Source: Chiloscyllium plagiosum
Taxonomy: Eukaryota
Length of the DNA: 64,000 nt
Assembly: GCF_004010195.1 (NCBI RefSeq)
Contig: NC_057739.1
Span: 28,323,239-28,387,238, forward strand
Direction: 5' to 3'
The position numbers and the translations under genes are program-made. Positions within the stretch are counted from its first letter, which is position 1. Every line of letters begins with the position of its first letter. A model generated the notes under the pieces. The model had not been told where the DNA came from, ran no database searches, and saw only the letters and a program-made list of their open reading frames with translations. Below, in pieces: positions 5,150 to 61,559 of this stretch.

Positions 5150-5259
5150 CTTTCATCCTTAATATCGAGAGTGTGGTGCTAGAAAAGCACAGCAGGTCAG
5201 GCAGCATCCGAGGAGCAAAAGAGTCGAAGTTTCGGGCAAAAGCCCTTTCATCCTTAATA
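5150..5259 (-). mobile_element. Single-arm PLE family-1 mini-insert with 15-bp TSD
   Basis: TSD CTTTCATCCTTAATA at 5150-5164 and 5245-5259. The insert matches the arm of the 20155-20340 palindrome. Confidence 0.85.
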
Positions 5260-5671
5260 GCTGTTGGGTGGACTTCTTTTTAAGTAATTCCTGGAACTTA
5301 GTGGTTGGATGTGGCATCCAGTACTAAAGTGGTATAGTCCAGATGATCTCTCGTATATTGTGGTGATGAGCAGCTGCATATTAAAGAAAAACACTTCGGT
5401 CAAAATAAAAGATCTTTGAATTCCTCAATATATGCATTTTTCAAAACATATCATTAACTTTGTATGAAATATTTGTACATAATTTATATGTATGAATCAT
5501 TATAAACATTGAAAGTTGAGTTAAAATATATGACTACCAAACACAATGGAATAAATGTATTAAAATCTTAAATGTCCTCTGTGTTCTGATTCTGCATCGT
5601 GACTTAAAGTTCACAAATCAGAGTCAATTGTGTGGTTTACACTGCAGTATTACATAATAAATATTTGATAA

Positions 5672-6170
5672 ACATAGAAAAGTACAGCACAGAACAGGCC
5701 CTTTGGCCCACGATGTTGTGCTGAGATTTAATCCTAATGTAAAATATAATAGCTGAACCTACGCACCCCTCAACTCACTGCTATCCATGAGCATGTCCAG
5801 CAGTCGCTTAAATGTCCCCAGTGATTCTGCTTCCACCACCACAACTGGCAACACATTGCATGCATTCACAACTATCTGCGTAAAAAACCTACCTCTGACA
5901 TCTCCTTTATACCTTCTTCCTCATATCTTCAAACTGTGACTTCTCGTACCAGTCAATCCTGCCCTGGGGAAAAGTCTCTGGCTATTGACTCCATCTATTC
6001 CTCTCATTATCTTGTACACTTCGATCAGGTCTCCTCTCTTCCTCCTTCTCTCCAGAGAGAAAAGTCCGAGCTTATTCAACCTTTCTTCATAAGGCAAGCC
6101 CTCCAGCCCAGGCAGTGTCCTGGTAAATCTTTGTACTCTCTCCAAAGCCTCTGTATCTTTCCTATAAACT
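5672..6170 (-). mobile_element. CR1 3' end
   Basis: Minus frame ERVQRFTRTLPGLEGLPYEERLNKLGLFSLERRRKRGDLIEVYKIM is the CR1 ORF2 C-terminus. Confidence 0.9.
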
Positions 6171-6718
6171 GTAACATTTGACCTTTGACTAATACATCTC
6201 TATATTAGTGTAATATGTATTCTTTTTCCTGCATCTTGGTGATTATTAATTTGGAAGGAAAATCTATTTGAGTTGGTGGCCTCATTTTTAATTTTTGTAA
6301 AGTCTATTCCAAAGTTGAATGTATATCTGTGTGGATTTCTATAATTAGATGAAAGTTGTTATTTGCCATCTGCAGGTGGGTTCCTAAACACAGCAGTATG
6401 CGCAAAGAGAATTAGCCTGGGTTAATCGTGGGATATATTCACCTCTCGCTATGGAATGGTTTGATCCAAGTCTAGAGCAAGCCTGTCCCTTGTGCATCTT
6501 GAAGTCTTATGTGGAGAGTCAAAGGAATAGTTTCAGATTGCCCAAGAGAGAGGAAAAAGTTTCTTGGGTTAGAAAAATAATTTTGATGCAGCCAACAGAC
6601 TAACCCAGTGCATGTTGTGGTGTTAAAAAGTATTCAAGTCATAATTACAATCTGTGTCCACTAGCTGTAAAGTTATCTATCTTTTTTCATTAGGAATACG
6701 CTGCTGAGCCATTTGAAG

Positions 6719-8869: not shown

Positions 8870-9650
8870 AAAATTGGCTTTTTTTATTCATTTGACGGAT
8901 GTGTTGCTGACTAGGCCAGCATTTATTGCCCATCCCTTTCTGTCCTTGTGGTGGTGGTGAGGTGCCACCTTGAACCATGCTGTGGTCCATGTGCTTCAGG
9001 TAGACACTTAATGCCATTAGGGAGAAAATACCAAGGCTTTGACCAAGTGACAGTGAAGTAACAGTGATATACTTCACAGTCAAGCTGGTGAGTGGCTTGG
9101 AATGGAATTTGCGGGTGTGGTGTTCCAGTGTGTCTGCTACTCTTGTCCTTTATGGTTGTGGTCATAGGTTTGGAAAGTGCTAGGAATCTTTGAGTTTCTG
9201 CAAAGCATTTGGGAGATATTACGTGCCGCTGTGACTGAGCGTCAGTAGTGGACTGACTGTATTTCTGGATGTGACACCACTCAACCAGACTGCACTGACC
9301 TCTGTGATATCAAGCTCTTTTTGAGTGTTATTGGAGCAGGACCCATCCAGGCAATTGGGGAGCAGTCCATCACACTCCTGCCGGGTGCCTTGTAGATGGC
9401 AGACAGGCTTTGGGGAGTGAGAAGGTGAATCACTCATTGCAGTATTCCTCATCTCTGAGCTCCTCTTGTCGCCAGTGGATTAATTTGGCAAATTCATTCA
9501 TTCAATTTCTGGTCCAGGATTTTGATAGTAGAGGTTTCAGTGGTGGAGCACCATTTGAATATCAGATGTCAATAAGATTGTCTCTGGGAATAGTCATTGC
9601 CTGGCATTTGTGTGGCACAAATGTTACTTGCCACTTTTTAGCATTGAGTG
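8870..9650 (-). mobile_element. 3' end of second LINE family (same family as 34014-38110 and 56251-59399)
   Basis: Shares ggccagcatttattgcccatccct tail and upstream sequence with the other copies. Confidence 0.8.
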
Positions 9651-9930
9651 TTATTTGGCCGTGTACATATGCAGTGTAACGTTTTAATACCTGATGTCAA
9701 GAGAGAGGCCACCACTGTGGTCACCATTTCTTGGAGAAGACCCCCCAAAAAATATTTCCTAAGTACCCAGTAATGTTTCAAGCAACATTCAAAGATTCTG
9801 GAGTGGAGCAAAGAAATCTACAAGGTTTTGATTTCCAAGGTAGTTAGAGAGGCTTCTGACTTGTTTAAATCATTTGGTTGAAAGTGATGTTTGATTACAC
9901 TCTACAAAATAATTTCTTGCTTCTTTTTAG

Positions 9931-10774
9931 TGTGGAAGCGTCTCCAGCAGAGTGTTGCAAACATGCAAAGATTTTGGAGGATACACAGTTTGTGGATGGA
10001 TACAAGCAGCTGGGATTCCAAGAGACAATATATGGTGAATTTTTAAATCGGTTGAGAGAAAACCCAAGACTCGTTGCCTCGTGCTTGGTGGCTGGGGAGA
10101 AGCTTAATCATGAGAGCACCCACAATGTAATCCTTACAGTATTTACTGCCCTTTATGGTAACTGCATTATGCCGGAAGATGAGAGCTATCTTCTGCAAGT
10201 GTTGCGCTACCTAATTGAGTTTGAATTGAAAGAGAGTGATAACCCTAGGCGACTGCTTCGAAAAGGTGCTTGCACTTTCAGCATTTTGTTCAAGCTTTTT
10301 TCAGAGGGTCTGTACTCTGCAAAGCTCTTTCTTACTGCAACTTTACATGAGCCAATTATGCTGCTGCTTGTAGAAGATGAAGATCACTTGGAAACTGACC
10401 CAAAAAAACTTATTGAAAGGTTTACTCCGGCACAGCAAGAAAAGTTCTTTGGCGAGAAGGGCACAGAGCAGTTCAGAAGGAAAGTGCAGGAGATGGTAGA
10501 AAGCAATGAAGCAAAATTAGTAACTTTGGTCAACAAATTTATTGGATATCTTAAACAAAACACTTACTGTTTTCCACATAGTTTGCGTTGGATTGTATCG
10601 CAAATGTATAAAACCTTGTCTTGTGTGGAAGGGTTAGCTGTTGGGGAGGTGAAAGCCATGTGCACGGATTTGTTGCTTGCCTATTTCATTTGCCCAGCGA
10701 TTGTTAATCCAGAACAGTATGGGATAATCTCTGATGCTCCAATTAACGAAGTGGCAAGATTTAACTTGATGCAG
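9931..10774 (+). CDS. GAPVD1: GAPVD1 coding exon 2 (RasGAP domain), 844 nt
   Basis: Acceptor ttctttttag|T completes a Ser codon from exon 1. Open frame VEASPAECC...ICPAIVNPEQYGIISDAPINEVARFNLMQ; donor CAG|GTAAGA. Confidence 0.98.
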
Positions 10775-12529
10775 GTAAGATTACTTTCTACTTAACTTAA
10801 TTTCTAAATTTTCATTTATTGCTCAACAATTAAGACTCTGAAAGGTAACTAATAGTAGTTAAAATTGGATAACTGAGCCCCACTGCTTTACTAAAAGTAG
10901 GAACTGGTATTACTGGTACAGAATCTGAAAATTCAATTCCTTAATTTTTCCTAAGGATCTAAGTCTTTTATTGACTACTTGACAGAGTCTACTTTTGTGT
11001 TGGCATGTTTTGCCAGCGCATGCCTTGCTATTCAGTCTTTTCAAAAATGGTTTTACATTGGCTGTTGCCTAGCTATAAAGGGACAGCACATTTTTATTTG
11101 AATTCAGTTTAGTTTTTAGTTTCTCACCTTACGCCAATCTGTCTGAGCGTGTACATGTACTTGTTTCGATTGGTTGCAAACCTCATCCAGTAAACTCTAA
11201 GGTAAATAATTCCATAATAAAAACTAATTAATTAATGCAATTGTTAACACCAGTCTTGAGAATGGAAACTCTCATATGAAGTTAATGTAATCTAGTTGTA
11301 GGTTTTGGCCAGGAGATGTGATCCTCCTTCATAGGATGTACTGTTGAAGAAGCCACCTCCACTCCCAAAGTTCAATCAGGAAGTACAAATCACTGAAACA
11401 ATTTAATGCTGTTGGCCTCCATGTGCAATTTATTTTTTATGAAAAAGCTTTGCATGTAACTGGATTTTTAATAATGAATAATTCATATTACTGCCGAATA
11501 GCTTATCTGTACCTGAAGTCCTAGTTTTATGTTTCTGTAATGTCAGGTACTTTACTGTTTTCAAACAGTGTGTAAGAATTTCAACATGCAATGTTTGATA
11601 AGTCACCACCTACTTAAATTGCATTAATGTTCCAACTATTTATTTCACTTTTTAAAATCTTAATTAGGAGTGAAAGATTGAGTGCAATCTATTTCTGGAT
11701 CAGTGTTTGTAAGGACATTCAAATGTGATTTACTACTCCATGACATCATGGTTGATGAATGCCTGGAGAACCCTTGCTCCCTGGAGGCACTAGATTCAAG
11801 CAGGTGTTGGGAAAGGGGAGATCTGTGCTACAGAGATCCGAGACCTTTATGCACAGTTTTCTTAAGCACTCTTACCTTGTTGCTGACCATGATGTCTAGG
11901 TCAGGAAGTGTGATGCTATATTTCATAAATCCATAAATAATTTGTGTGATTGTATTAACAGTTTTAGCTTGAACAAATATATGTTTATATAAACCAAAAA
12001 CGTGATTAAGACTGCTTTATAAAATCAAGGTCTTACTGTTCTGAGTGCTTCTTCCAACCTCCTGCACTGCTTGTCATGACAAACTTGGAAATTGGGTGTA
12101 TATTTAAATTATTGCTTTCCCTCTTACAACTAGTACCCTGTTGCAGGTTTATTACTCCCTTTTTCACTCCTGTGCCTTACTAAGTTAACCTATAGGAGGC
12201 TTTCCCATGGCCCTTGTTTTTGGATTCCAAGTTTTGCAATGATCCACAATGAACTTCTTTTGAGATTAAGTCAAAAATGTGTTCATTCAAACATTGAAAG
12301 CAAGGGGAAATTTCTTCACTACTCCTCACACATGCATATAATCAGGGAATTGAAGAAGACAAGGTAGGAGATCACAGAATTCTTCATGCACAGGAAACCA
12401 ATTAACCCAGCATGTCTGCACCAATTCTCCAATGAATATTATGACCTAGTGTCATTTGCCTGCTTTTTCCTGTACCCTTGCCGATTGTTTTGATTCAAAT
12501 AATCATGAAATTGCATCTTGAATGGCTCA

Positions 12530-13169: not shown

Positions 13170-13600
13170 ATCTCCATTGCCTGTCCCGAGTTGCCTTGAA
13201 TTGATTTGGTATTGAGAATCAACCACATTACTATGGGTCTGAATTCACATGGAGAAAGTGAGGACTGCAGATGCTGGAGATCAGAGCTGAAAAGTGTGTT
13301 GCTGGAAAAGCGCAGCAGGTCAGGCAGTATCAAAGTAGCAGGAGAAGCGAAAGAAGAAGGGCTTATGCCAACTTTTCCAGCAACACATTTTTCAGCTCTG
13401 AATTCACATGGGCCAGGATGGCAGATTTTCTTCCTTGAAGGATATTGCAACAACCTACAATGGTTTCATAGTCAGTAGTAGATTCTAAATTCCAGATTGT
13501 TTTTATTGAATTCACATTCCACCATCTGCTATGGCTGTGTTTGAACCCAGGTTCCATTAGCTGAAGTTCTGGATTAATATTGGTCATTCTGCTACTACAT
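13170..13600 (-). mobile_element. tRNA-headed short element sharing head and tail with the second LINE family
   Basis: Minus strand has attaatccaga..GGGTTCAAACAC..gcagatggtggaatgtgaattcaat (as at 34014+ and 59399-), then directly a ggcaactcgggacaggcaat tail-like segment. Confidence 0.7.
13238..13411. mobile_element. Internally deleted PLE family-1 palindrome with 15-bp TSD
   Basis: TSD TCTGAATTCACATGG at 13238-13252 and 13397-13411. Inverted ends agctgaaaa.tgtgttgctggaaaag / cttttccagcaacaca.ttttcagct. Confidence 0.9.
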
Positions 13601-15414
13601 GTGTATCATTAGTGCAAATTCACTGTAAAGTGAATGGCGAATTGGCAACTGTTGCTAAAGAGCAATGGTTTAAAACTTGCATTGGCTGTAACGTGATTAC
13701 ATTGCAGACACTTAAGCACTGTTTCCAAAGTGCAAATTTTCTGTAATGCAGGGCTGCAGAAGAACGCAACCATCACGTTTTAGAAGAACTACCTGTAGTT
13801 TCACGCTAATACTACAAGGCCATCGCCCAGGACTCTTGCTTTTGTTTCAGATTTCTAGCATTTGTGGTTCTTTGTGTTTGTTTTTGATGTTTATATTGGG
13901 TCACAGAGATCAGCCTCCTTGCAAATCAAAAATCATATTCAAAAGATTTGAAAACTTGTCATTAATATACTCCAAAAGGAATCGGCCCAATCTGTACAAC
14001 CCTTCCGAAGGCTCACAAACAAGTACAATTAGCATAAATGAATGCCACTAGTGATGGCTAGTGTTATGCTAATTAACTTCTGGTCATTGTTTATGCCAAT
14101 TGCACTCATCTGCACATCTTCAGGCTGTGCAAATCCAGCTGATTCCTTTTGGCACAAATACATTTTTGTACATAACACCAGTTTTTAAGCTTTTGAATAT
14201 AAAGTTAATTCATGAAGAAACTGATCTCTGCACTCTAAGATGACCAGTAAATGAAAACAAAAGCTAGGAACTCCAGATGCTGGAAATATGAAACAAAAAT
14301 AGTGCTGGAGAAACCCAATAGACCCATAGAGAGAAAACAGGGTTAATGTTTTGAGTCAAGTGATCATTTGTCAGAACTGAAGATAGCCGAGGAAGGGAAG
14401 ATGCTGATGACAGATTGAGGTTAGAGAATAGAATACATGGAGATGATCTCTCTGGACACAGCACATACAATCAGCTGTATGTTGAAAGACAAAGGAGAAA
14501 AATCACAATTTCTAAGGGCTGTTATGTGGTGCTACTGGCAATTGCCTGGCTACTGTGCTAGATTCTCTGAATTGCTAGATCTGCATGGTTCACAAAATAA
14601 TAATACCACCACAGTGCTACTTTATCTCCGTTCTACTTCTGTATAGAAAAATTAAGTCTTCAGATTTTTGTGTGGGGCGGGGGGTGGTTTTGGAACCAGG
14701 AGGGTGCTTGGAAATCAAAGAAAAATCTCAAGAAATGGACAAAAAAAGGCTGTGTTTGTGATGTTGCAAGAGAGAGATTCAGTGTAATGTGTTTTAAACA
14801 TGTGAAGGAGAATAACAAGTCTGTGTGAGAGATAAATAGACTGGATACGTGTCTTTAAATTGGGGAAGGAGTGTGTATGCGTGCATGTCTGTTTGTAAAC
14901 ATGCAAGTTTATATATGTGGAAGTGTTGATGGAAAGGTTTGGGTGTGGCACCAGCAACCCTGAACAACTGGAACACAGGAAGATAAAATTTAATGTTCCT
15001 GAGAAAATCAACAGTGAATTTTGGAGTTGAAAGGTGTTGATGGGTGGAAAGAGGTTGGACAGGGTGGAATAAACAAGTCAACATATCAGCTTTATAACTG
15101 AACAATGAGGAAATGTCAAGCAAAAGGGTGCAAATTTAGAAATAAAATTGCCAGTGTGGAAAATGGGAATTCCTTGGACAAATGTAAAAGGCAAAACTAA
15201 AGAGTTCTGATTATATAGAGAATGCAAGTTGCTGAGCTTTAGTCTACAAGTACTAGATGCAGATGTTGGCAACAAGAGAATTTGTTGAAGTGACATTCGA
15301 CAGGAAGCTCAGTCATTTTTGCAGACAGCACTTCTTTAGAATGCCTCAATTGATTCTGCTTCCACGTTACATCCAAAGAGTACATTCTAGAGCAAAACCA
15401 TCTGTGTGAAGAAA

Positions 15415-18345
15415 ATAGAACATGACAGTGCAATGCAGGCCCTTCGGTCCTTGATGTTGCGCCGACCTGTGGAACCAGTCTGAAGCCTATCTATCCTATG
15501 GTATTCCATTTTCGTCCATACATTTATCCAATAACCATTTAAATCCCTTAACGTTGTTAAGTCTACTACTGTTGTAGGTAGTGCATTCCATGCCCCTACT
15601 ACTGAGTAAAGAAACTACCTCTGGCATCTGTCCTACGTCTATCATCTCTCCAATTCAAAGCTATGTCCCCTCGTGCTAGCCATCACAGTCTGAGGAAGGA
15701 AGGCTCTCTGTGTTCACCCTGTGTAACCCACTGATTATCTTCTATGTCTCGATTAAGTCACCTCTCCACCTTCTGTAATGAAAACAGCCTCCAGTCCCTC
15801 ACCCTTTGCTCATAAGACATTCCCTCAATACCAGGCAATAGCCGGGTAAATCTCCACTGAACCCTTTCCAAAACTTCCACGTCCTTTGTATAATGTGGTG
15901 ACTGGAATACTCCCAGTGCTGCCACACCAGAGTGTTGTACAGCTACAGCATGACCTCATGGCTCTGAAACACTATCCGTCTGCCAATAAAAGCTACACAA
16001 CTTATGCCGCCTTAACAACCCTGCCAAACTGGGTGGCAACTTTCAGGGGTATACGTACATGGACACTGAGATCTCTCTGCTTATCTACACGACCAAGAAT
16101 CTGACCATTAGCCCAGTACTCTGCATTCCTGTTGCTCCTTCCAAAGTGAATCACTTCACACTTTTCTGCATTAAACTCCAATTGCCACCTCTCAGCCCAA
16201 CTCTGCAGCTTATTTATGTCCCTCTGTAACCTGCAACATCCCTTAGCACAATCCACAATTCCACTGACCTCAGTGTCGTCTGCAAATTTACTAACCCATC
16301 TTCTGCACCCTCATATAGGTCATTTATAAAAATGACAAACAGCAGTGGCCCCAAAACAGATCCTTGCGGAACACTGCAAGTAACTGAACTCTCGAGTGAA
16401 CATTTCCCAACAACCACTATCCTCTCTTTTTGTCTTTCAACTAGCCAATTTCTGATCCAAATCATGAAATCATCCTCAATGTCATGCCTCCATATTTTTG
16501 TTTTGCCTGCCATGGGGACCTTCTCAAACCCCTTACTGAAATCCATATACGCCACATCAACTGCTTTACCTTCATTCACTTGTTTGGTTACCATCTCAAA
16601 GAACTCAATAAGTTTTGTGAGAGACAATCTACCCTTCACAAAACCGTGTTGTCTATCCCTAATTAACTTATTCCTTTCTAAATGATTATGAATCCTATCT
16701 CTTAATCTTTTCCAACACTTTATCCACAATTAAAGTAATGCTTACTAGCCTATAATTACCAGGGTTGTCTCTACTCAACTTCTTGAACAACAGGACATTT
16801 GCTATCCTCAGTCTTCTGGCACTATTCTGTTGACAATGACAACATAAAGATTAAAGCCAAAAGCTTTGCAATCTCCTCCCTGGCTTCCCAGAGAATCTTA
16901 GAATAAATCCCATCCGGTCCAGGGGACCTATCTATTTTCACATTTTGCAGAATGGCTAACACCTCCTTATGAACCTCAATTCCATCTTATCTAGTAGCCT
17001 GTATCTCTGTCTGCTCCTCAACAACTTTGCCTTTTTCCGGTGTGAATACTGACAAAAAATATTCTTTTTAACACTTCTCATATCTCCTCTGACTCCATGC
17101 ACAACTTCCTACTACTATCCTTGATTGTCCTTAATCTTTCTCTTATTCTGTTATTCCTGTTATTCCTGTTATACCTATAGAAAGCTTTCGAGTTTCCTTG
17201 ATCCTATCTGCCAGCGACTTCTCATGTCCCCTCCTGGCTCTTCTTGGCTCTCTCTTTAGGTTTTTCCTGGCTAACTTGTAACTCTGAAGCGCCCTAGTTG
17301 AGCCTTCTCGCCTCATCCTAACATAAGCCACCTTCCTTTTGACAAGAGCTTCAACTACTTTAGTAAATCACGGTTCACTCGTTGGACCATTTCCCCACTG
17401 CCTGCCAGATACATACTTAACAAGAACCTGCAGTAGCTGTTCCTTGACTAAGCTTTATACAAGGCTCATAATAAAGCCATGAATAATTTATTTCCGCATC
17501 CAATGCATTCTAAATCTTGCTTAATCGTATCATCATTGCCTTTCCCCCACCAATAACTCTTGCCATGCATTATATACCTATCCCTTTCCATCACTAAACA
17601 TAACCGAACTGTGGCCACTATCACCAAAGTGCTCACCTGCCTCCAAATCTAGCACCTGGCCAGGTTCAGTACCCAGTATTAAATCTAATGTGGCCGCTTC
17701 CTTGTTGGCTTGTCTACATAGCGTGTCAAGAAACCCTCCTGCACACATTGGACAAAAACTGACCCATCTAAAGTGCTTGAACTATAGTATCTCCAGCCAA
17801 TATTTGGAAAGTTAAAGTCCCCCATAACAACTACCCTTTACTCACTCTACTGTCCAAAATTATCTTTACTATCCTACCCTCTGCATCCCTGGAACTGTTC
17901 GGTGGCCTATAGAAAACAGGGTGACTTCTCCTTCCCTGTTTCTACCTCAGCCTATGCTAGTTCAGTACATGAGTCCTCAAATGTTCTTTTGCTGCTGTAA
18001 TACTGTTCTTGACTAACAATGCCGCACCTTCCCCTCTATTACCATCTCCTGTTCTTAGTGAAGCATCTAAATCCCGGAACCTGCAACAGCCATTCCTATC
18101 CCTGCTCTGTCCATGTGTCTGAAATGGCCACAACATCGAAGTCCCAGATACAAACCCATGCTGCAAGTTCACCCACCTTATTCCAGATGCTCCTGGCGTT
18201 GAAGTGAACACACTTCAAACCATCTTCTTACTTGCCGGTTAACTCTTGGGACATTAAAACCTCATTTCTGACCTCACTACTTTCTACCTCCTGGACACTG
18301 GAACTACAATTTGGGTGCCATCCCCTGCTGAATTAGTTTCAACCC
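15415..18345 (-). mobile_element. CR1 LINE, near-complete decayed ORF2 (same subfamily as 692-3762)
   Basis: QHGFVKGRLSLTKLIEFF, VDVAYMDFSKGFEKVP, VPQGSVLGPLLFVIFINDL, KCEVIHFG; colinear with 692-3580. Confidence 0.92.
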
Positions 18346-18765: not shown

Positions 18766-19060
18766 TAACTTAGATTTAAGTTAAAAATCTCACAACACCA
18801 GGTTATAGTCCAACAGGTTTAATTGGAAGCACAGTAGCTTTCCGAGCGACGCTCCTTCATCAGGTGATTGTGGAGGGCTCGATCGTAACACAGAATTCTG
18901 TGTTACGATCGAGCCCTCCACAATCACCTGATGAAGGAGCGTCGCTCCGAAAGCGAGTGTGCCTCCAATTAAACCTGTTGGACTATAACCTGGTGTTGTG
19001 TGATTTTTAACTTTGTACACCCCAGTCCAACACCGGCATCTCCGAATCATAACTTAGATT
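18766..19060. mobile_element. PLE family-2 palindromic mini-element (236-bp palindrome 18778-19013, ~36-nt tail, 11-bp TSD)
   Basis: The arms differ at 5 positions; centre GAATTC at 18893-18898. TSD TAACTTAGATT at 18766-18776 and 19050-19060. Core CTGATGA-A-GGAGC-GTC-GCTCC-GAAA. Confidence 0.92.
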
Positions 19061-20101: not shown

Positions 20102-20355
20102 CATAGATACTTTCCTGGAGGAGAAAGTGAGGTCTGCAGATGCTGGAGATCAGAGCTGGAAATGTGTTGCTGGAAAAGCGCAGCAGGTCAGGCAGCATCC
20201 AGGGAACAGGAGAATCGACGTTTCGGGCATAAGCCCTTCTTCAGGAATTCCTGAAGAAGGGCTTATGCCCGAAACGTCGATTCTCCTGTTCCCTGGATGC
20301 TGCCTGACCTGCTGCGCTTTTCCAGCAACACATTTCCAGCATAGATACTTTCCTG
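20102..20355. mobile_element. PLE family-1 palindromic mini-element (perfect 186-bp palindrome 20155-20340, 37-nt tail, 16-bp TSD)
   Basis: 93-bp arms with zero mismatches and no spacer; centre GAATTC at 20245-20250. TSD CATAGATACTTTCCTG at 20102-20117 and 20340-20355. Confidence 0.95.
20251..20278 (+). ncRNA. Minimal type-I hammerhead ribozyme motif (mirror copy on minus strand at 20217-20244)
   Basis: CTGAAGA-A-GGGC-TTAT-GCCC-GAAA-CG-TC: CUGANGA box, 4-bp helix II, GAAA box, helix III reduced to palindromic ACGT, GUC triplet. This is the minimal form known from PLE terminal repeats. Activity is not shown. Confidence 0.75.
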
Positions 20356-24097: not shown

Positions 24098-25387
24098 TAC
24101 ATTCACAGGGTTGAAAAAGTGTTGCTGGAAAAGCACAGCAGGTCAGGCAGCATCCAAGGAGCAGGAGAATCGACGTTTCGGGCATGAGCCCTTGTTCAGG
24201 AATGAGGAAAGTGTGTCGAGCAGGCTAAGATAAAAGGTAGGGAGGAGGGACTTGGGGGAGGGGCGTTGGAAATGCGATAGATGGAAGGAGGTCACAGTTA
24301 GGGTGATAGGCCGGGGTGGGGGCGGAAAGGTCAGGAAGATTGCAGGTTAGGAAGGTGGTGCTGAGTTCGAGGGTTGGGACTGAGATTTGACTGAGACAAG
24401 GTGGGGGGGGAGGGGAAATGAGGAAACTGGAGAAATCTGAGTTCATCCCTTGTGGTTGGAGGGTTCCTAGGCGNNNNNNNNNNNNNNNNNNNNNNNNNNN
24501 NNNNNNNNNNNNNNNNNNNNNNNNNNNNNNNNNNNNNNNNNNNNNNNNNNNNNNNNNNNNNNNNNNNNNNNNNNNNNNNNNNNNNNNNNNNNNNNNNNNN
24601 NNNNNNNNNNNNNNNNNNNNNNNNNNNNNNNNNNNNNNNNNNNNNNNNNNNNNNNNNNNNNNNNNNNNNNNNNNNNNNNNNNNNNNNNNNNNNNNNNNNN
24701 NNNNNNNNNNNNNNNNNNNNNNNNNNNNNNNNNNNNNNNNNNNNNNNNNNNNNNNNNNNNNNNNNNNNNNNNNNNNNNNNNNNNNNNNNNNNNNNNNNNN
24801 NNNNNNNNNNNNNNNNNNNNNNNNNNNNNNNNNNNNNNNNNNNNNNNNNNNNNNNNNNNNNNNNNNNNNNNNNNNNNNNNNNNNNNNNNNNNNNNNNNNN
24901 NNNNNNNNNNNNNNNNNNNNNNNNNNNNNNNNNNNNNNNNNNNNNNNNNNNNNNNNNNNNNNNNNNNNNNNNNNNNNNNNNNNNNNNNNNNNNNNNNNNN
25001 NNNNNNNNNNNNNNNNNNNNNNNNNNNNNNNNNNNNNNNNNNNNNNNNNNNNNNNNNNNNNNNNNNNNNNNNNNNNNNNNNNNNNNNNNNNNNNNNNNNN
25101 NNNNNNNNNNNNNNNNNNGCGCCCACCCCCACTCCGGCCTATCACCCTCACCTTGACCTCCTTCCACCTATCGCATTTCCAATGCCCCTCCCCCAAGTCC
25201 CTCCTCCCTACCTTTTATCTTGGCCTGCTGGTCACACTTTCCTCATTCCTGAACAAGGGCTCATGCCCGAAACGTCGATTCTCCTGCTCCTTGGATGCTG
25301 CCTGACCTGCTGTGCTTTTCCAGCAACACATTTTCAGCTCTGATCTCCAGCATCTGCAGTCCTCACTTTCTCCTACATTCACAGGGT
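24098..25387. mobile_element. Penelope-like element with inverted terminal repeats spanning the gap; 14-bp TSD
   Basis: TSD TACATTCACAGGGT at 24098-24111 and 25374-25387. ~215-bp inverted arms. The minus frame next to the gap reads RLGTLQPQGMNSDFSSF (PLE ORF C-terminus). Confidence 0.9.
24474..25118. other. Assembly gap (645 N)
   Basis: Run of N between inverted PLE arms. Confidence 1.
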
Positions 25388-25442: not shown

Positions 25443-25565
25443 GCAAATAGTGAGTTGAAAATGTGTTGCTGGAAAAGTGCAGCAGGTCAGGCAGCATCCA
25501 GGGAACAGGAGAATCGATGTTTCGGGCATAAGCCCTTCCTCAGGAATGATGAGCAAATAGTGAGT
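25443..25565 (-). mobile_element. Single-arm PLE family-1 mini-insert with 13-bp TSD
   Basis: TSD GCAAATAGTGAGT at 25443-25455 and 25553-25565. Confidence 0.88.
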
Positions 25566-33497: not shown

Positions 33498-36209
33498 AGA
33501 ATGGCATATCTTAGACATTATCTTGCCATTTTGTTTCTGGATTTATATCTAGTCAAGAATGGTCAGATCAAAGTCTTATCAGTTTGTTGGCTATCCAGAT
33601 CTTGTGTGAGATTAGTTTGTTCAATTTAAATCTGATTTTTAATGGGCTGCAGCACAAAACCACCTATTAATAAATTTGGCTGATGACAACCCATTTAAAG
33701 TGTGAAATAGTGCATTCTCTGTGAGAAGAAGATGCGTTAAGTTGGAGGAAACAAACTTCCTAGAGTAGCATTGGGTAGGAACATAACTGGGTAGGCCATT
33801 GAGCAGATCGCCTGCAATTCAGTTAGACCATAGCTGATCATTCAACCTGTGGTATTTTCCCATGTATCTTTATATCACTGGATGTCATTAGTCTCCAGAA
33901 CTCTTTCGATTTCTGTCTTACACATGTTGAATGAGTTGAACTTGCACAGATACCTAGAGTAGAGAGTTTCAAAGATTTGCAATTGTCTTGATTGAAGCAA
34001 TTTCTTATGTCAAGGGAAGCGATGACCTAGTGGAGGTGTCACTAGAGTGTTAATCCAGAGAAATTGGTGATGTTCTCAGGACCCAGGTTTGAATTTCATC
34101 ATGGCAGATGGTGGAAGTCAAATTGAGTAAATATCTGTAATTAAGGTTCTGATGATTACCATGATGAAATCATTGTTGAATGTTGGAAAAGCCTTCCTAA
34201 TTTATTATTATCCTTTAGGGAGATAGACTGCTGTCCCTACCTGGTCTAACCTATTGATGTGGCTAATTCGTAACTGCCCTCTGAAATGGCCTAGCATGTC
34301 ATTAATTTGTGGGGAAAGAAAAGAAATAAAACTACTTGGCTTCTACCCAATGGACCACCTGAAACCTAGGCACTAGAAATGACAATGGCACGCCCAGCCT
34401 TGTCAATCCTGTAAAGCCCTCCCTTTATTTTGGAGCTAGTACCAAAATTGGGATCATTGTCTCTCAGAGCAACAACCTGACCTAGTCATACTCCAAGAAT
34501 CATACCTTAGAGCCCACGTCCCAGACATCATCATCATTATCCATGGATTTGCCATGTCCCACTCGTCCTGAGTGGCTAGGCAGCAGCACAATGGATTGGA
34601 TTGGTCATGTCCCAAAGGATATTGCTCCAGATCCCGTCTAGCAATTGGTAGTGAGGGAACCACCAAGAGGGAAACGCACATTTTACCAGTTCGTCTCCAG
34701 TGTACCTGCTACATCTGCCAATGACAGTATTAGTAAATGTACACCACGCGGTTCTTGTGGAGACAAAGTTCCATCTTCACATTGAGAACACTTGATGTTG
34801 TGTGGCACTATCTCTCTGCTAAATGCGATAAACTTAAAACAAATCTAGCAACTCCAGATAGGGCATCCCTGAGGCAGTATGCACTAATGACAGCAGCAGA
34901 ATCGTACTCCAACACTATCTGCAATTTCATGGCCTGGCATTTCCCCACTCTACCATCAAGCCAGTGAATCATATGAACAGTAATAGACCATTCAGTTCCT
35001 CGAGCCTCTTTACCATTCAGTGACATCTGTGGTTTAACTCCATGTCTTGGCCTAATGGCTCATTCTCTTTGTTTAACAAAACTATTTTATCTGTCTTGGA
35101 TTTAAAATTAACAACTGGTTCATTGAAGAGTGCAGGAGGGCATACTAGGAGCAGCACTAGGAATACCTAAAAATGAGGTGTCAATCTGGTGAAGTTAGAA
35201 AACAGGACTATCTGTGTGCCAAACAGCATAGGTAGCAAGTGATAAACAGAGCTAAAGTCGCCCACAATCAGTAGATCAGATCTAAGCTCTGCAATCCTGT
35301 CACACCCAGTTGAGTGTTGGTGAACCATTAAATAACTAGCTGGGGAAGGAATCTCCACAAACAAACAAATCCTCAAGAATGGGGGAGCCCAGCACATCAG
35401 TGCAAAAGATAAGGCTGAAGCATATGCAGCCATCTTCAACCAGAAATGCTGAGTGGATGATCCTGCGTGGCATTACCCTGTTCACTGAAGCCCAGTTTGT
35501 TTTCTAGCATGACCACTCAGTTCCTCACCTCATTATAACTTCAGTTCAAACATGGAAAAAAGGAGCTAAATTCCAGAGGTGAGGTGAAAGTGACTGCCCT
35601 TGTCAATAAGGCTGCTTTGGACCAAGTGTGGCATCTAGTGTTATTGGGAGTCTAAGGAAAATCTGCTGTTTGGGCTCATACCTGGCACAAAGCAAGATGG
35701 TTGTGGTTGTTGGAGTCAGTCACCTCTTTCCAGAATATCTCTGCAGGAATTCCTCAGAATCGTGTCCTAGGCCAAACTACCTTAAACTGCTTGATCAATG
35801 ACCTTCCCTTCATAAGGAGGCAAGTGGGGATGTTTGCTGATGATTGCACAATGTTCGGTACAATTCGGGACGACTCCAATGCCAAAGGAGCCCATGGTCA
35901 AATGCAGCAGGACTTGGAAAAAATCCAGGCTTGGGCTGAAAAGTTGCCTGAGCATTCGTGCCAAATAAATGCGAAGCAATAACCATCTCCAATTGTCGAC
36001 CACCTAACCACTGCCCTTGACATGCAATGATATTACCTTTACTGAATCCCCTACAATCAACTGGCCTGGGTTAGCATTCATTAGAAACTGAACTGGACTA
36101 ACTACTAAAATACAGTGAGTACAAGAGCAGATCAGAGGCTAGAAATATTGCAGTGAGTAACTCCCCTTCTGAAACCACGAAGCTTGTTTGCCCATCTACA
36201 AGGCACAAG

Positions 36210-36408
36210 GGACTCGAAGCCCTCCGTTTCTTTCTTTCCCGCCGTACCGAACAGTACCCTTCCACAGACACCCTCCTTCGACTGACTGAACTGGTCCTCA
36301 CCCTGAACAACTTCTCTTTCCAATCCTCCCACTTCCTCCAAACGAAAGGAGTAGCCATGGGCACCCGCATGGGCCCCACCTACGCCTGCCTCTTCGTAGG
36401 ATATGTGG
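36210..36408 (+). mobile_element. Penelope-like RT fragment (well preserved)
   Basis: GLEALRFFL...LVLTLNNFSFQSSHFLQTKGVAMGTRMGPTYACLFVGYVE is a PLE RT motif region. Confidence 0.9.
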
Positions 36409-36632
36409 AGTGTGGGTGTAAGTGTGTGTGTGTTGTGTGGGTGTGGGTGTGTGTGTGTGGGTATGGGTGTGCCTGTGCCAGTGTGTGTGTTGTGTGGGTG
36501 TGGGTGTGAGTGTGGGTGTGGGTGTGTGTGTGTGTGTGGGTGTAAGTGTGTGTGTGTTGTGTGGGTGTGGGTGTGTGTGTGTGGGTATGGGTGTGCCTGT
36601 GCCTGTGTGTGTGTGTGTGAGTGTGTGTGTGT
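36409..36632. repeat. Compound GT-rich tandem repeat
   Basis: (GT)n/(GTGTGG)n with a higher-order unit (gtgtgggtgtaagtgtgtgtgtgttgtgtgg...gtatgggtgtgcctgtgcc) occurring twice. Confidence 0.95.
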
Positions 36633-37404: not shown

Positions 37405-37602
37405 ATTTCCGATGCCCCTCCCCCAAGTCCCTCCTCCCTATCTTTTATCTTAGCCTGCTGGACCAACTTTCCTCATTCCTGAAGAAGGGCTAATGCCCGA
37501 AACGTCGATTCTCCTGTTCCCTGGATGCTGCCTGACCTGCTACGCTTTTCCAGCAACACATTTCCATCTCTGATCTCCAGCATCTGCAGACCTCACTTTC
37601 TC
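37405..37602 (+). mobile_element. PLE family-1 3' end with intact hammerhead motif at 37479-37506
   Basis: Nearly identical to 25175-25373; CTGAAGA-A-GGGC-TAAT-GCCC-GAAA-CG-TC. Confidence 0.9.
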
Positions 37603-38877
37603 CACAAGTCAGGAGTGTGATAGCATACTCTCCATCTGCATGGATATGTTTTGCTGCAATCACATTCAAGAAACTTGACACCACAGAGAACAAAGGTACC
37701 ATATTCACAAGCATTCACCCCCTCCAGCACCTGCGGCTCAGAACCAGCAATGTATGTTATCTACAAGATGCACTGCAGAAATTCACCAGAGCGTCTTAAG
37801 AAGCACGTTCCAAAACCCATGACCACTTTAATCTAGAAGGACAAGGGCAGCAGATATATGGGAACACTACTAGGTTCCTGTTTCCCTCCATGTCATCCTG
37901 ACTTGGAAATAATGTAGCTGTTCCTTCTGTGTCATAGGGTCAAAAATCTTGGAACACCCTCTTGAATGGCAATGTCTGTCTACCCACAGCACTTGGACTG
38001 CAACAATTCAAGAAGGCAGCTCCCTCCGACCTCCTCAAAGGGAACTAAGGGGTGAGCAGTAAATTCCAACCCTATTGTTAATGCCCGCAAATTTTTGAGT
38101 GAATTTAAAACAAAACACAGTGGTCTCCCTTTATGAGATGATATCTCAGTTCTAAATTCACCAGCCAGGGCAATATCTCATCGCTCTCCACTATCTCATC
38201 CTGTAAGAATTTTTGAGTTTCAATGCATTTTCCCCTCCTTCACTTCTCCAGAGAATATAGACTTCATTTCTCAATCCATCCTTGTAAAACAGTTCCAGGG
38301 ATTAATCCGGTAAACAAGTTCCATTCCCTCTTTACATCATTGTAATATCATCAATATATACTTCTTCATCATTTTTAAAGGTACAGAATGGAGTGTCAAC
38401 ATTGAATATTATGTAAAGTGCGAACTATAGCACATGGCATCGAGATGGCTGGCTAAACTTTAAGATTTCAAATCATAGTTATGAACATTTTCGTTTCCAT
38501 GTCCCACATTCTCTTAGTCACCAGTTAAGATGGCTCAACTGCTATACTTTGTATAGAAGCAGTTATGTTGACTCAGAATGTTTACATCATATTAAAGTGT
38601 GCTAATTGCAAGAACAAAGTACTAAATAACATCTCGTTAAGGTGTGCTGATATAATTAATGAGCCCTACTGTAACCAACTTCACTTAACGTATATTTTCA
38701 GATGGCAATCGTACAGTGCAATCTATAAGGCTATACTGGTAATTCATTTATTAAGGATTGACCTAATCAGAGCGAAAATGTTTCACTTGTTCCAGCCTTT
38801 TAGTCAATCATCATAAAAGATCCAGATCGCAAAGGTGCCCATTTGTTGATTGTCTCGAATCCATTACTTAACTGAAC

Positions 38878-38994
38878 CAGTTGTAACAGAGTTAAAAATC
38901 ACACAACACCAGGTTATAGTCCAACAGGTTTAATTGGAAGCACACTAGCTTTCGGAGCAACGCTCCTTCATCAGGTGATAGTCAGTTGTAACAG
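38878..38994 (-). mobile_element. Single-arm PLE family-2 mini-insert with 12-bp TSD
   Basis: TSD CAGTTGTAACAG at 38878-38889 and 38983-38994. Minus strand CAC-CTGATGA-A-GGAGC-GTT-GCTCC-GAAA-GC-TA-GTG is an intact hammerhead core with a 3-bp helix I. Confidence 0.9.
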
Positions 38995-44318: not shown

Positions 44319-44437
44319 TCAGGCCTGTTCTTAAACAAAACCAGAAATTGCTGAAGAAAGTCAGCAGGTCTGGCAGCAGTAGAGGAAAAGTAGAGTCAAC
44401 ATTTCAAGATCAGTGACCTTCCTTCAGTCCTGTTCTT
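44319..44437 (-). mobile_element. Older single-arm PLE mini-insert, 14-bp TSD with one mismatch
   Basis: TCAGGCCTGTTCTT 44319-44332 versus TCAGTCCTGTTCTT 44424-44437; cagcaggtctggcagca body. Confidence 0.7.
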
Positions 44438-48857: not shown

Positions 48858-49030
48858 CCTATCTGTGATGTGTTGCTGGAAAAGCACAGCAGGTCAGGCA
48901 GCATCCGAGGAGCAGAATGGCTCCAGCCTGAAATGTCGATTTTCCTGCTCCTTGGATGCTTTTCCAGCAACACACACTCCACTCTGATCTCCAGCAACTG
49001 CAGACCTCACTGTCTCCTATCTGTGATGTG
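48858..49030. mobile_element. Internally deleted PLE family-1 palindrome with 15-bp TSD
   Basis: TSD CCTATCTGTGATGTG at 48858-48872 and 49016-49030; inverted tgtgttgctggaaaagca / tgcttttccagcaacaca. Confidence 0.88.
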
Positions 49031-50060: not shown

Positions 50061-50063
50061 TGG

Positions 50064-50355: not shown

Positions 50356-50357
50356 AT

Positions 50358-57900: not shown

Positions 57901-60090
57901 GCACTGATGTGCTAGGCTCTTTCAGCATCGAGGATGGCAATATTTGTGAAACCGCCTCCTTCGGTGAGTTGTTTAATCTTCCACCACTGTTGACCGTTGG
58001 ATGTGGCAGGACTACAGACCTTAGATTTGATCCGTTAGTTGTGGGATTAGTAAGCTCTGTGTATCACATGCTGCTTCTGCTGTTTGACATGCAAGTTGCC
58101 CCACTTGGTGGATTATCCAGGTTGACTCCTCACTTTTCACGTATGCCTGGTACTGCTTCTGGAATGGCTTCCTATGCTATCCATTGAGCCGGGGTTGAGT
58201 GGTGGATATGCCAGGTCATGAGGTTTCAAATTCTGCTGCTGTTGATGGCCCACAGTGTCTCGTGGATGCTCAGTCTTGAGTTGTTAGATTTTTCAAAGTC
58301 TATCCCATTTAGCACAGTGATCACTTATCACAACACAATGTAGGTTGTCCTCAATGTGAGGATGGAACCTCAACTCCACAAGAACTGTGGTGGTGCCTCT
58401 TACCAGTACCATCATGGACAGGTACACCTGCAGCTGACAGATTGGTAAAGATGAGGTCAAGTATATTTTTCCCTCTTGGTTACCTCACTACTTGCCATAG
58501 ACCTAGTCTAGCAACTATATCCTCGAGGACTCAACCAGCTTAATCAGTAGTACTGCTGCTGAGCCACTCTTGGTGGTTTCCCCCACCAGAGTACATTTTG
58601 TACCCTTGTCATCCTACATGCTTCCTGCAAGTGTTGCTCAACACGGAGTACTGACGATTTGTTGGCTGAGGGAGGACAGTACGTGGTAATCTGCAGGAGG
58701 TTTCCTCACGCATATTTAACCTGGAACTATGAGACTTCATGGGTCCCGAATAAATGTTGAGGACTTCCAGGGCAATTCCCACCCAACTGTATACCACTGT
58801 GCCACCACCTTTGCCGGGTGTGTCCTGCTGGTGGGAAGGGACCATCTTCAGGGCTGGTGGTGATGATGTTGATGTCTGGGACATTGTCTGTAAGGTATGA
58901 TTCCGGGACTGTGACTATGTCAGGCAGTTGCTTGATAAGTCTGAGAGACAATTGTCCCAGTTTTGGCACTAGCACCCAGATGTTAGTCAGGAAGACTTTG
59001 CACGGTCAACAAAGCTGTTTCTGCTGTTGTCTTTTCTAATGCCTAGGTCGATGCCAGGTGATCCATCTTAATTTCTTTGAGAGTTTCTTTAAAAGTCCTA
59101 CTTGCTACACCATTTCAGAAAGCAATTGAAAGTCAACTACATTACTGAGTCTGGAGTCACATGTAGGCCACACCAGGTAAAATGGCAGATTTCCTTCCCT
59201 GAAGGATGGTAGTGAACCAGATGTGTTTTTCTAACAATTGATAATGACTTCACATGGTTATCAGTAGATTCTTAATACCAGATTTTTAAAAAATTTAATT
59301 CAAATTCCACCATCTGCCACAGGATTTGATCATTGCCAGAACATTACCTGGGTCTCTGGATTAATAGTCTAGCAATAACACGAATAGGCTATCGCCTTCA
59401 CAAGAATATTAGCTATTCTCCAGTCTTCTGGGACCTCACCTGTGGCTAAAAAGGATGTAGAGTTCCCTGTTCAGCCCCAACAGTCTCCTCCCTTGACTCC
59501 TTCAGTAGCCTGGGAACTTATCTACCTTGATATTTTTCAAAATACCCAGTACCATGTCCTTAATATCAATGTGCCCTAGAATATTGACATAGCCCTCACT
59601 AATTATCCAGTGAATTCCGATGCAAAGTGCTCATTAAGGCCTTCACCCACCAAATTCCTCTGCATAAATTCCCCCCTGTCCTTGAGTGGACCTACCCTTT
59701 CCCTAGCTACCCTCCTGCCCCTAATATACATATAAATGCCTTGGAATTCTTCATAATCCTACTTATCAAGGACACTTTTTGGCCACAGGGTACTCTGCAC
59801 TGCTTGCCTGCCTGCCCCTCGTGGCAGTCACCCATCTATATAGCTGAAGCTTCATTGTGGCCATACCCCTGAAGTTCCAATCCACAAAATATTATGCCTC
59901 CTATCTGCTGTCAATGAGTCCAACCAATCCATCCGCTTTGAGTGGAGCTGCAGCTGGACATGCTGCTTCCTGGAAACACAGTTGTCAGGGGCATTTGAGG
60001 ACTTTCTGAAATCCCACATGTCATAGGAGGAGCATGCCACTCTGCTAATTGCCATTACTGCCCCTCTAAGTACTGCAACAGTCCTTGCTC
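54955..60090 (-). mobile_element. Older CR1 with internal deletions (54955-56250, 59405-60090) hosting the LINE at 56251-59399
   Basis: LYKTLENCVQFW..LERMQKRF and NPGNYTAVNPTSVAGKLLEK. The sequence resumes at 59405; ORF1 N-terminal CSSYDMWDF motif at ~60000. Confidence 0.8.
56251..59399 (-). mobile_element. Near full-length decayed CR1-group LINE with tRNA-like head and no evident ORF1
   Basis: Head homologous to 34014-34280. EN (KQLPDIVTVPESYL, GGGTVVYS) and RT (KATGPDNI, NYHPISLL, AGVPQGSVQGP, CTDDCTMF) remnants; family tail at ~56255-56310. Confidence 0.88.
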
Positions 60091-61313
60091 GTCGCCCTCT
60101 TCCAACGCTTTCACTCAACCCACATTATTGAGTTTTACATGAATTCTTGCATTTTCTGGGATCACAAACTATAAACCAATGGTATAGATGCTGATGTGGA
60201 GATCTTGCAGTACTTCCTATTATATGTTAATTGGGTGTTTGATCAAGTTGTGGGCATGAATGAGGGATGCATGTATCCTACATATAAATGACTGAACTGT
60301 TGGTTAGGAGGGATGTGTTTGCAATATGTGTCTCTAAATAAAACCTAGTGTCTGAAGACTGGACTTGTTCCAATCAATATAATACTTTCAATTTCAATCT
60401 TAAAGAAGTATGATAGGTTTTGTCAAGTTATGTTGGGTTTATTTTTTGAGCAATTTAGAACTTTGACAAATAACAGCAAAGTGCTGGAGGAACTCCAGAT
60501 CTACTCCTATCTGTGGAGAAAGAAAGCGTTAACATTTTGAGTCCAATGGTGCTTCCAAAGTTTGTCAGCCCTCTTTGGATGGTGAGCACTCTGTTGTTGA
60601 GAAATATTGATTTTGGTTTCAGTGACATCAAAAAAACGTTACCATGATTTGTGTTTGAAACAGTTAAATTGGATGGAGTGGTTTCTTTGGAGATCTGATA
60701 CTCTGTGGCTTGGTACATGCAGCAGCTTTTGTATATATATATATATATTTACATGGCAGGAAAGGAGGCCTTTGTTGAGAAGTCTGGAGTTTGGTAGTAT
60801 ATTTCCTGAACTTCCCTACCATGTCTATCTGGACTGCTTTTTCAGTTGTCAGTAAATACTTGGGTAAGAAATGAGTGATTTCTTCTTTGGCTGTCTCTGA
60901 TCTGTGCCCACAGGGTAGAGAATAAATACTTTGTCAGATACAGGTCCATTGCTTAAATTCATTTAATTTCACTTAATTCTTTCTCTTGCACCAGTCCCTC
61001 TTGGCAATTGTGGTCTGTAAGTTTGTTTAGTGGGAAAATTGTCTTAACAGCTTGTCACTGTTAAGATTGCATATATACTATTTTTGTTTAATTTGGACTG
61101 TTGTTTATGTAATAAATGTGCTCCTGTAAGACTCCTGTTTTGATGCTATGGATCTGAAAGATTGTTTTATTCTTGTCAAAGGTCTTGCGTCTCTTTCAAA
61201 AATTGCACAACTGTGCGGTTGTAGTTTCTCCTTGGCTTTGGAATGATCCTAATGGTGCAAACTCTTGGCAAGTGGGAGCCAAGATGTGCATATTTTATTT
61301 GCCCATTAATTGC

Positions 61314-61559
61314 TAAATAATCAAGAGCTGAAAATGTGTTGCTGGAAAAGCGCAGCAGGTCAGGCAGCATCCAAGGAACAGAAGAATCGACGTTTCGGGC
61401 ATAAGCTCTTCAGGAATTCCGGAAGAAGGCCTTATGCCCGAAATGTCGATTCTCCTGTTCCTTGGATACTGCCTGACCTGCTGCGCTTTTCCAGCAACAC
61501 ATTTTCAGCTCTGATCTCCAGCATCTGCAGTCCTCACTTTCTCCTTAAATAATCAAGAG
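61314..61559. mobile_element. PLE family-1 palindromic mini-element, diverged arms, 14-bp TSD
   Basis: TSD TAAATAATCAAGAG at 61314-61327 and 61546-61559; centre GAATTC at 61414-61419; tail on the right side. Confidence 0.92.

What the first reader, a model, noticed from the sequence alone, without database searches (positions are those of the whole stretch)
5150..61559. Population of ~100-290 bp hammerhead-centred Penelope mini-elements with intact target-site duplications
Seen: nine insertions with 11-16 bp TSDs (5150, 13238, 18766, 20102, 24098, 25443, 38878, 48858, 61314), plus an older one at 44319 with one TSD mismatch. Apart from the gap-spanning copy they are non-coding and consist only of the PLE terminal repeat, either as one arm or as a head-to-head palindrome plus a ~35-37 nt unpaired tail. 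Three unrelated families keep the same architecture CUGANGA-N-helixII-GAAA-(CG/GC)-UH with different, covarying helix II stems. Known: PLE terminal repeats carry minimal hammerheads and can be inverted with a short 3' tail. Inference: these are either a stereotyped minimal PLE integration product or non-autonomous ribozyme-based mobile units (retrozyme/MITE-like) that are abundant in this lineage.
Basis: partly seen in the sequence, partly recalled or inferred. Interest (0 to 1): 0.8.

Follow-up and report, generated by a model that had tools for sequence, protein, structure and literature searches.

The report
Capped-start Penelope retroelement mini-insertions
These 80-270-base stubs and hairpins are insertion products of Penelope-like jumping genes, apparently copied from the element's internal copying start sites back to the capped front end of its RNA; they are not a separate mobile family, but their fixed ends give clues to how this poorly understood class of elements inserts.

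Summary
The insertions are real: nine exact 11-16 bp TSDs and one with a mismatch. "Hammerhead-centred" overstates it: only 2 of 10 copies keep an intact core. They are end-repeats (pLTRs) of RT + GIY-YIG Penelope-like elements (PLEs); the inverted-repeat, tail and TSD layout is published. They are not a MITE or retrozyme family: hairpins with identical centres differ in haplotype and tail side. Added here: about 70% of arms stop within 15 nt at the ribozyme's 5' edge, not at its cut site. A non-templated G precedes that position in 63/100 (family A) and 88/100 (family B) copies lacking the genomic C (background 26%), the known signature of a reverse-transcribed cap. All 40 two-arm loci in a fixed-position sample are head to head, and 37 have exactly one tail. 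Best model: run-off cDNAs from the two known internal RT start sites to a capped RNA end, with hairpins made by priming on both target strands. Fold-back synthesis is not excluded. The scan noted these elements before in other pieces of this genome; its index showed no note on the extra G.

The parts
5150..5259 (-). Older family-A single arm, tail-less; insert 5165-5244, 15-bp TSD (5150-5164, 5245-5259); stops before CUGANGA, so no hammerhead
13238..13411 (-). Family-A head-to-head pair with deleted centre; insert 13253-13396, 33-nt tail at left, 15-bp TSD; no intact core
18766..19060 (+). Family-B palindrome; insert 18777-19049, centre about 33 nt upstream of the RNA start position, 35-nt tail at right, 11-bp TSD; both cores carry a point change
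20102..20355 (-). Family-A perfect palindrome centred on +1/+2; insert 20118-20339, 38-nt tail at left, 16-bp TSD; arms identical over 93 nt
20251..20278 (+). Intact minimal type-I hammerhead core (CUGAAGA, bulged A, 4-bp helix II, GAAA, palindromic CG, UC); mirror copy at 20244-20217 on the minus strand
24098..25387 (+). Long family-A head-to-head insertion across a 645-N gap (24474-25118), 14-bp TSD, 37-nt tail at right. The left arm reaches the C-terminal coding end of the GIY-YIG endonuclease; both cores carry G8C
25443..25565 (-). Family-A single arm, tail-less; insert 25456-25552, 13-bp TSD; core 25543-25516 with one stem-III change
38878..38994 (-). Family-B single arm, tail-less; insert 38890-38982, 12-bp TSD. 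It starts exactly at A(+1), preceded by a G shared with the TSD; intact core 38974-38946. Clean example of a start-site-to-proximal-site run-off copy
44319..44437 (-). Old single arm of a family distantly related to A; 14-bp TSD with one mismatch (44319-44332, 44424-44437); decayed core
48858..49030 (+). Family-A head-to-head pair with deleted centre; insert 48873-49015, 15-bp TSD; no intact core
61314..61559 (+). Family-A palindrome centred on +1; insert 61328-61545, 37-nt tail at right, 14-bp TSD; both cores damaged
37405..37603 (+).
36168..36410 (+). Fragment of the PLE reverse transcriptase; genomic relatives about 90% identical lie about 1.3 kb upstream of family-A arms

Best explanation
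The minis are new, one-off integration products of autonomous endonuclease-bearing PLEs. SHOWN: the arm is the PLE end repeat. It follows the RT/GIY-YIG ORF and also precedes the ORF start, as a 5' leader (ATG at +167). It has two fixed 3' ends about 35 nt apart, and a 5' pile-up at one A that is preceded by a non-templated G. INFERRED: that A is the capped transcription start. The PLE protein nicks both target strands 13-17 bp apart. It primes reverse transcription from each nick, with 1-3 nt of microhomology, at the two internal start sites that bound the tail, and the RT runs off the capped end 95-130 nt away. One priming gives a single arm, with or without tail. Two primings, probably on one RNA, give two cDNAs joined head to head by end joining, so exactly one arm has the tail. 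Transcripts that begin further upstream give the ~30% longer copies with the same layout. The hammerhead is a passenger of the leader; its cleavage does not set the ends.
For: Link to autonomous PLEs: RT is followed by a family-A arm in 6 of the 11 RT-bearing loci fetched besides the window's own (RVT_1 E 1e-8). GIY-YIG frames lie upstream of arms. An arm is followed by the ORF start in L017 and L068. 3' ends cluster at +129 and +85..+101 in family A and at +122 and +84..+94 in family B. 5' ends: 47,193 exact matches of the +6..+25 word; 13 of the first 100 and 60 of the first 100 listed continue past -10, i.e. about 30% overall (counted by hand). Base before +1 when not the genomic C: G63/A21/T16 in the first 100 of 5,210 matches (family A; background 0.263, p 1.5e-14; 54 of 83 after dropping 17 ambiguous rows), and G88/A5/T7 in the first 100 of 1,326 (family B). 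Copies starting at +2 show G in 1 of 20 (1 of 7 non-C). An untemplated G marks copied caps in L1 and SVA (PMC4859970, passages). 40 of 40 two-arm loci are head to head, 37 have one tail and 0 have two (p 1e-8 against at most 50%), while single arms split 18 tailed to 17 tail-less. Arms of one copy share alleles at 49 of 51 site comparisons; divergence is 0.033 vs 0.061 permuted, p 2e-4. The tail-less arm reaches further 5' in 18, the tailed arm in 7, and they tie in 21 of 46 pooled pairs. In L104 and L141 the tailed arm is little more than the tail. Microhomology at both outer ends averages 1.6-1.8 nt vs 0.3 expected (13 and 11 ends). In vitro the Anolis PLE extends both strands from two internal sites and needs no ribozyme cleavage (PMC11167929).
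Against: No cap-selected RNA data: the one RNA run that mapped showed no pile-up of molecule starts (poly(A) single-cell library of a related species). The extra G shows a physical RNA end (RTs also add untemplated C at template ends; recalled), not strictly a cap. In L017 a deletion junction found nowhere else in the assembly sits in both arms and is not at a GT donor. Both arms of window 24098 share G8C, a rare variant (217 non-G matches genome-wide, 12 of the first 100 being C). Both fit a DNA-templated second arm or a lost source. In the pooled, partly selected set, 2 of 54 pairs have two tails and 6 have none. Deletions after insertion could also make arms unequal. G8 is almost invariant among young copies, so the source elements kept the ribozyme for some reason. 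Many single arms have no detectable TSD (31 of 120 loci overall).
Confidence: 0.62

Rival explanations
1. Same RNA-end run-off, but the second arm is made by fold-back or template switch of the first cDNA onto itself. It is trimmed at the tail boundary by the endonuclease, or centres are deleted after insertion.
For: A unique deletion junction in both arms of L017; G8C in both arms of 24098; 3 rare variants shared by both arms vs 56 unshared; allele concordance. Self-priming was proposed in PMC3846280, and endonuclease resolution of the tail in PMC8557442 (passages).
Against: In 18 of the 25 unequal pairs the tail-less arm holds 5' sequence that the tailed arm lacks, which fold-back from the tailed cDNA cannot give without later deletion. 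Tail-less single arms have their own TSDs (5150, 25443, 38878). Centres with G on both arms have only 1-2 nt spacers.
Confidence: 0.25
2. The 5' pile-up is an RT stop at the folded hammerhead or ordinary truncation, not an RNA end.
For: The pile-up lies 4-8 nt upstream of CUGANGA in both families; a shoulder of starts runs to +15 and scattered starts lie further in.
Against: The non-templated G is specific to +1 in two unrelated families (vs 51). Helix I is only 2-3 bp. RT has already passed helix II when it stops.
Confidence: 0.07
3. The minis are self-propagating non-autonomous units (retrozyme/MITE-like) cut by their own ribozyme.
For: Very high copy number: about 580,000 family-A-like and 120,000 family-B loci by extrapolation from 127 and 26 loci in 774 kb. 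The same centre junctions recur. Non-LTR retrozymes derive from pLTRs (bioRxiv 10.64898/2026.07.22.740005). Short deleted tandem units exist (L017, L068).
Against: Recurrent junctions come with several haplotypes, and the tail is on either arm in two of three junction classes (17 loci). No head-to-tail arrays were seen in the 80 sampled regions. Ends are not at the cut site +32/33. The hairpin RNA buries the ribozyme. About 1% of copies keep the sequence behind the tail.
Confidence: 0.06

Closest known systems
Insertion architecture of EN+ Penelope-like elements: inverted 5'-truncated pLTR, 30-40 bp tail at one end, TSD (PMC3846280, PMC8557442; passages read)
   Same: Head-to-head inverted pLTR, tail on one side, TSDs, heavy 5' truncation, solo pLTRs, assembly gaps in long palindromes.
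   Different: Here the pLTR-only product dominates (hundreds of thousands of loci), TSDs are longer (13-17 bp in palindromes vs 8-10 bp there), and the 5' ends pile up at one base with an extra G, which the passages read do not report.
Poseidon of Anolis carolinensis, PAc (PMC11167929; main text read)
   Same: Two internal RT start sites bounding the tail, extension of both strands, predicted dimer, hammerhead in the pLTR whose cleavage is not needed.
   Different: The PAc ORF starts inside the ribozyme, whereas here the ATG is at +167, behind the tail. PAc priming is described as non-homologous, whereas here 1-3 nt microhomology is enriched. The one-tail rule and the run-off to a capped end are not described there.
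Minimal hammerheads of metazoan PLEs (PMC4209133; results and discussion read)
   Same: CUGANGA, bulged nucleotide, G10.1-C11.1, palindromic 15.2-16.2, short helix I; mostly solo motifs, and opposite-strand pairs 100-700 bp apart ascribed to truncated PLEs.
   Different: Helix II is only 4-5 bp here; sharks are not named in the parts read; activity was not tested here.
Non-LTR retrozymes (bioRxiv 10.64898/2026.07.22.740005; part 1 of 5 and passages)
   Same: pLTR-related, non-coding, type-I hammerhead.
   Different: Retrozymes are head-to-tail tandems with a ribozyme in every unit; these are dispersed single or head-to-head copies with TSDs.
L1 twin priming and cap-derived 5' G (PMC4859970; passages)
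   Same: Two primings from the two target strands give an inversion; an untemplated G marks full-length 5' ends.
   Different: L1 primes at the poly(A) end plus a variable internal site, with no duplication (recalled). Here both sites are fixed and internal, and the arms usually overlap.

Membership tests
EN+ Penelope-like element insertion | End repeat linked to an ORF with RT | tested here: met
   RT upstream of family-A arms in L113, L115, L117, L118, L119, L121; RVT_1 hit. Not tested for family B.
EN+ Penelope-like element insertion | C-terminal GIY-YIG endonuclease | tested here: met
   CxxC...YIGET frames upstream of arms in L034 and L046, and the matching C-terminal end in window 24098; motif recognised from recall, no Pfam hit obtained.
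EN+ Penelope-like element insertion | Partial tandem: the end repeat also precedes the ORF (pLTR) | tested here: met
   L017 and L068; ATG at +167. No intact full-length copy was seen; long copies run into assembly gaps.
EN+ Penelope-like element insertion | Inverted 5'-truncated copy, 30-40 nt tail, TSD | tested here: met
   40 of 40 two-arm loci head to head, 37 with one tail; tails 33-38 nt; TSD 13-17 bp.
EN+ Penelope-like element insertion | Clade (Penelope/Poseidon, Neptune, Nematis) by RT phylogeny | not tested
   No tree was built.
Minimal type-I hammerhead of PLEs | Core, bulge, G10.1-C11.1, paired helix II, palindromic stem III | tested here: met
   52 hits vs 0-2 in controls; 35 of 52 with a self-complementary stem III, 16 more CpG-decayed. 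Intact in only 2 of 10 listed window copies.
Minimal type-I hammerhead of PLEs | Self-cleavage (dimer or protein-assisted) | not testable with these tools
   No genomic pile-up of ends at +32/33.
Non-LTR retrozyme | Head-to-tail tandem units each with a hammerhead | tested here: not met
   120 sampled family-A loci: 88 single, 31 head to head, 1 partial tandem with ORF pieces.
Non-LTR retrozyme | Circular RNA intermediate | not tested
   One search was not suited to it.
MITE-like non-autonomous family | Copies descend from master elements with shared junction and haplotype | tested here: not met
   17 loci in three junction classes differ in haplotype; tail side varies in two classes.
MITE-like non-autonomous family | Symmetric terminal inverted repeats | tested here: not met
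   One end carries an unpaired tail; half or more of the copies are single arms.

The most novel reading that the evidence does not exclude
PLEs integrate by obligate two-site twin priming. A dimeric RT-endonuclease sits on one capped RNA, and its two active sites start about 35 nt apart (the tail is the spacer), each from one target nick. The short 'strong-stop-like' run-off cDNA of the 5' leader is itself the main integration product, and it has seeded several hundred thousand cap-marked ribozyme stubs in this genome.
Probability: 0.45. Interest if true: 0.68.

Novelty: new member of a known kind. Interest (0 to 1): 0.48.

Why it matters
The PLE transposition cycle is described as still undefined (PMC8557442, passage). 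This genome offers tens of thousands of near-identical products whose ends can be read base by base. The extra G at +1 in two unrelated families points to the transcription start and to run-off synthesis. The one-tail rule and same-template arms turn the in vitro finding of two start sites into a concrete, testable integration model. It also means that the many 'solo' minimal hammerheads of vertebrate genomes can be by-products rather than mobile ribozyme units.

Tried and rejected
Rfam scan: no hammerhead family matched, only hairpin-driven miRNA hits below their gathering scores. Ribozyme cut as the 5' boundary: rejected, since starts pile at -3..+15 with only scattered starts near +32. An amplified dead-ribozyme (G8C) subfamily: rejected, with 217 non-G matches against at least 16,912 with G; its frequency came from my query. 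Splicing as the cause of +1 or of the L017 junction: rejected, as there is no AG before +1 and no GT donor. L017 as founder of a deleted non-autonomous family: rejected, as the junction occurs only in that insertion. A pair count on the MAFFT alignment is void: my structure string was misregistered and family B was misaligned by one column; one search replaced it. The first 5'-end histogram mixes subfamilies with different upstream sequence; redid it on one subfamily. One of 11 proximal microhomology values (L066:9191) used a wrong anchor and is understated. RNA: no listed holder is on record as RNA. Raw reads of one related-species run cover the arm (depth about 1,200) far more than the ORF start (about 10-20), but show no molecule-start pile-up; a second run laid no reads. 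This says nothing about the start site. PDB search of the RT gave no match. No full-length intact element was recovered, no orthologous empty sites were checked, and no tree was built. Literature searches listed no paper on a cap-derived G or twin priming in PLEs; the library lacks most subscription papers and I saw no supplements.
Full report
Observation. The window is 39.9% GC with one 645-N gap. It holds a RasGAP-domain exon at 9869-10795 (PF00616, E 5e-36). All nine TSDs are exact and the tenth has one mismatch; the same kind of search fired on 2 of 232 random intervals. Seven copies belong to family A, two to the unrelated family B, and 44319 to a distant relative of A. Six copies are head-to-head pairs with an unpaired tail of 33-38 nt (45 nt at 48858); four are tail-less single arms. 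Only 20102 and 38878 keep an intact hammerhead core. The motif itself is real: 52 hits in 774 kb against 0-2 in controls, with different paired helix II stems. In hairpin copies the RNA folds into one long stem and the ribozyme cannot form.

What it is. I sampled 80 fixed-position 10-kb stretches of the same genome (774,198 non-N bases). They hold 127 family-A-like and 26 family-B loci, extrapolating to roughly 580,000 and 120,000 genome-wide. One exact 40-mer occurs 16,912 times. The family-A arm ends RT-bearing copies and follows GIY-YIG coding sequence. In L017 and L068 it also precedes the ORF start, with the ATG at +167. It is therefore the pLTR of an endonuclease-bearing PLE. Long copies show the same two 3' ends and the same head-to-head layout (window 24098).

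Ends. Numbering family A from the A four bases before CUGAAGA, 3' ends cluster at +129 and +85..+101. Family B has the same two ends. For one young subfamily, 47,193 exact matches of the +6..+25 word exist. From the first 100 rows of each of two complementary searches, counted by hand, about 30% continue past -10 and about 70% stop within -9..+5. The ribozyme cut site is at +32/33 and shows no comparable pile-up. Where the base before +1 is not the genomic C, it is G in 63 of the first 100 of 5,210 matches (background 0.263, p 1.5e-14). After dropping 17 ambiguous rows (duplicate, long copies, antisense-arm overlaps, perfect centres) it is 54 of 83. In family B it is G in 88 of the first 100 of 1,326; many of these abut the antisense arm, where the G can be shared. 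The bases further upstream vary, so no genomic allele or spliced exon explains the G. Copies starting at +2 show G in 1 of 20. Untemplated 5' G is the accepted mark of a copied cap in L1 and SVA (PMC4859970, passages). Both +1 sites lie in a pyrimidine-C-A context like an initiator (consensus recalled). I infer that +1 is the capped RNA start and that the minis are run-off cDNAs of the 5' leader.

Hairpins. All 40 two-arm loci in the fixed-position sample are head to head; 37 have one tail, 2 have none, 1 is cut by a gap, and 0 have two. Single arms split 18 tailed to 17 tail-less among 35 at 85% identity or more, so free choice would give at most half with one tail (p 1e-8). In a pooled and partly selected set, 46 of 54 pairs have one tail, 6 none and 2 two. 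Arms of one copy agree at 49 of 51 comparisons over four polymorphic non-CpG sites, and are closer than permuted pairs (0.033 vs 0.061, 20 young pairs, p 2e-4; my notes gave a wrong tally, corrected here). Centres differ between copies. Where a centre recurs through microhomology, the 17 loci checked carry several haplotypes, and the tail is on either arm in two of three classes; all 6 of the third class have it on the same arm. So each hairpin is built at insertion from one template type, not copied from a master. The tail-less arm reaches further 5' in 18 pairs, the tailed arm in 7, and 21 tie. In L104 and L141 the tailed arm is little more than the tail, as twin priming predicts. Both outer ends share 1.6-1.8 nt with the target on average, against 0.3 expected.

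Against. A deletion junction unique in the assembly occurs in both arms of L017. Both arms of window 24098 carry the rare G8C change. Three rare variants are shared by both arms against 56 unshared. These fit fold-back synthesis, lost or minor source copies, or conversion. Deletions after insertion could mimic unequal arms. No cap-selected RNA was available; the RNA lay showed arm coverage but no start pile-up. G8 is nearly invariant in young copies, so sources retained the ribozyme even though its cut does not define the ends.

Known work. The inverted pLTR, tail and TSD are in PMC3846280 and PMC8557442 (passages). Minimal hammerheads, solo and in opposite-strand pairs, are in PMC4209133 (parts 1-2 of 4). 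Two internal RT start sites, extension of both strands, a predicted dimer, a requirement for RNA behind the start sites, and independence from ribozyme cleavage are in PMC11167929 (parts 1-2 of 4). Only 424 matches of the ORF-start word exist against 47,193 arm matches (patterns of similar, not equal, strictness), so by analogy minis should be poor templates. Retrozymes are tandem arrays (bioRxiv 10.64898/2026.07.22.740005, part 1 of 5 and passages), a test these fail. Five searches listed no paper on a cap G or twin priming in PLEs; supplements were not seen. Earlier scan notes on other pieces of this genome reached the same filing, and some guessed that the pile-up is the RNA start. My note of that idea predates those look-ups, and a look-up for the cap reading returned nothing.

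Verdict. Real and abundant, a new member of a known kind, and not a separate mobile family. The extra G and the one-tail rule make it a useful handle on PLE integration. Interest 0.48.

Noticed in passing
window 9869-10795 (+): Long open frame with a RasGAP domain (PF00616); looks like a GAPVD1-type exon (name recalled), so the insertions probably lie in introns.
   Followed up: partly
   Followed up: partly
L017:1006-2174: Insertion with three pLTRs and a large internal deletion joining the ORF start to the element's 3' end; the junction is present in both orientations and nowhere else in the assembly.
   Followed up: yes
L068:2129-2711: Partial tandem with a different internal deletion (137 nt of sequence behind the tail, then the 3' end), a short inverted arm and a 16-bp TSD.
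   Followed up: partly
L077 (about 2958-4585) and L068 (about 9503-9690): Another PLE family with a distinct GIY-YIG endonuclease, in inverted arrangements.
   Followed up: no
L068:2467 joined to 2502-2503: Contigs of related runs show low-depth opposite-strand joints between a tail end and a proximal end, i.e. rare tail-to-tail junctions, which were absent from my genomic sample.
   Followed up: no
window about 700-3540 and 15400-18310: Two CR1/L2-type LINE copies about 80% identical, 14.7 kb apart (RVT_1 hit; family name recalled).
   Followed up: no
G000:C7:27313841 and 27313946: Head-to-head pair in which both arms carry the same G8A change.
   Followed up: no
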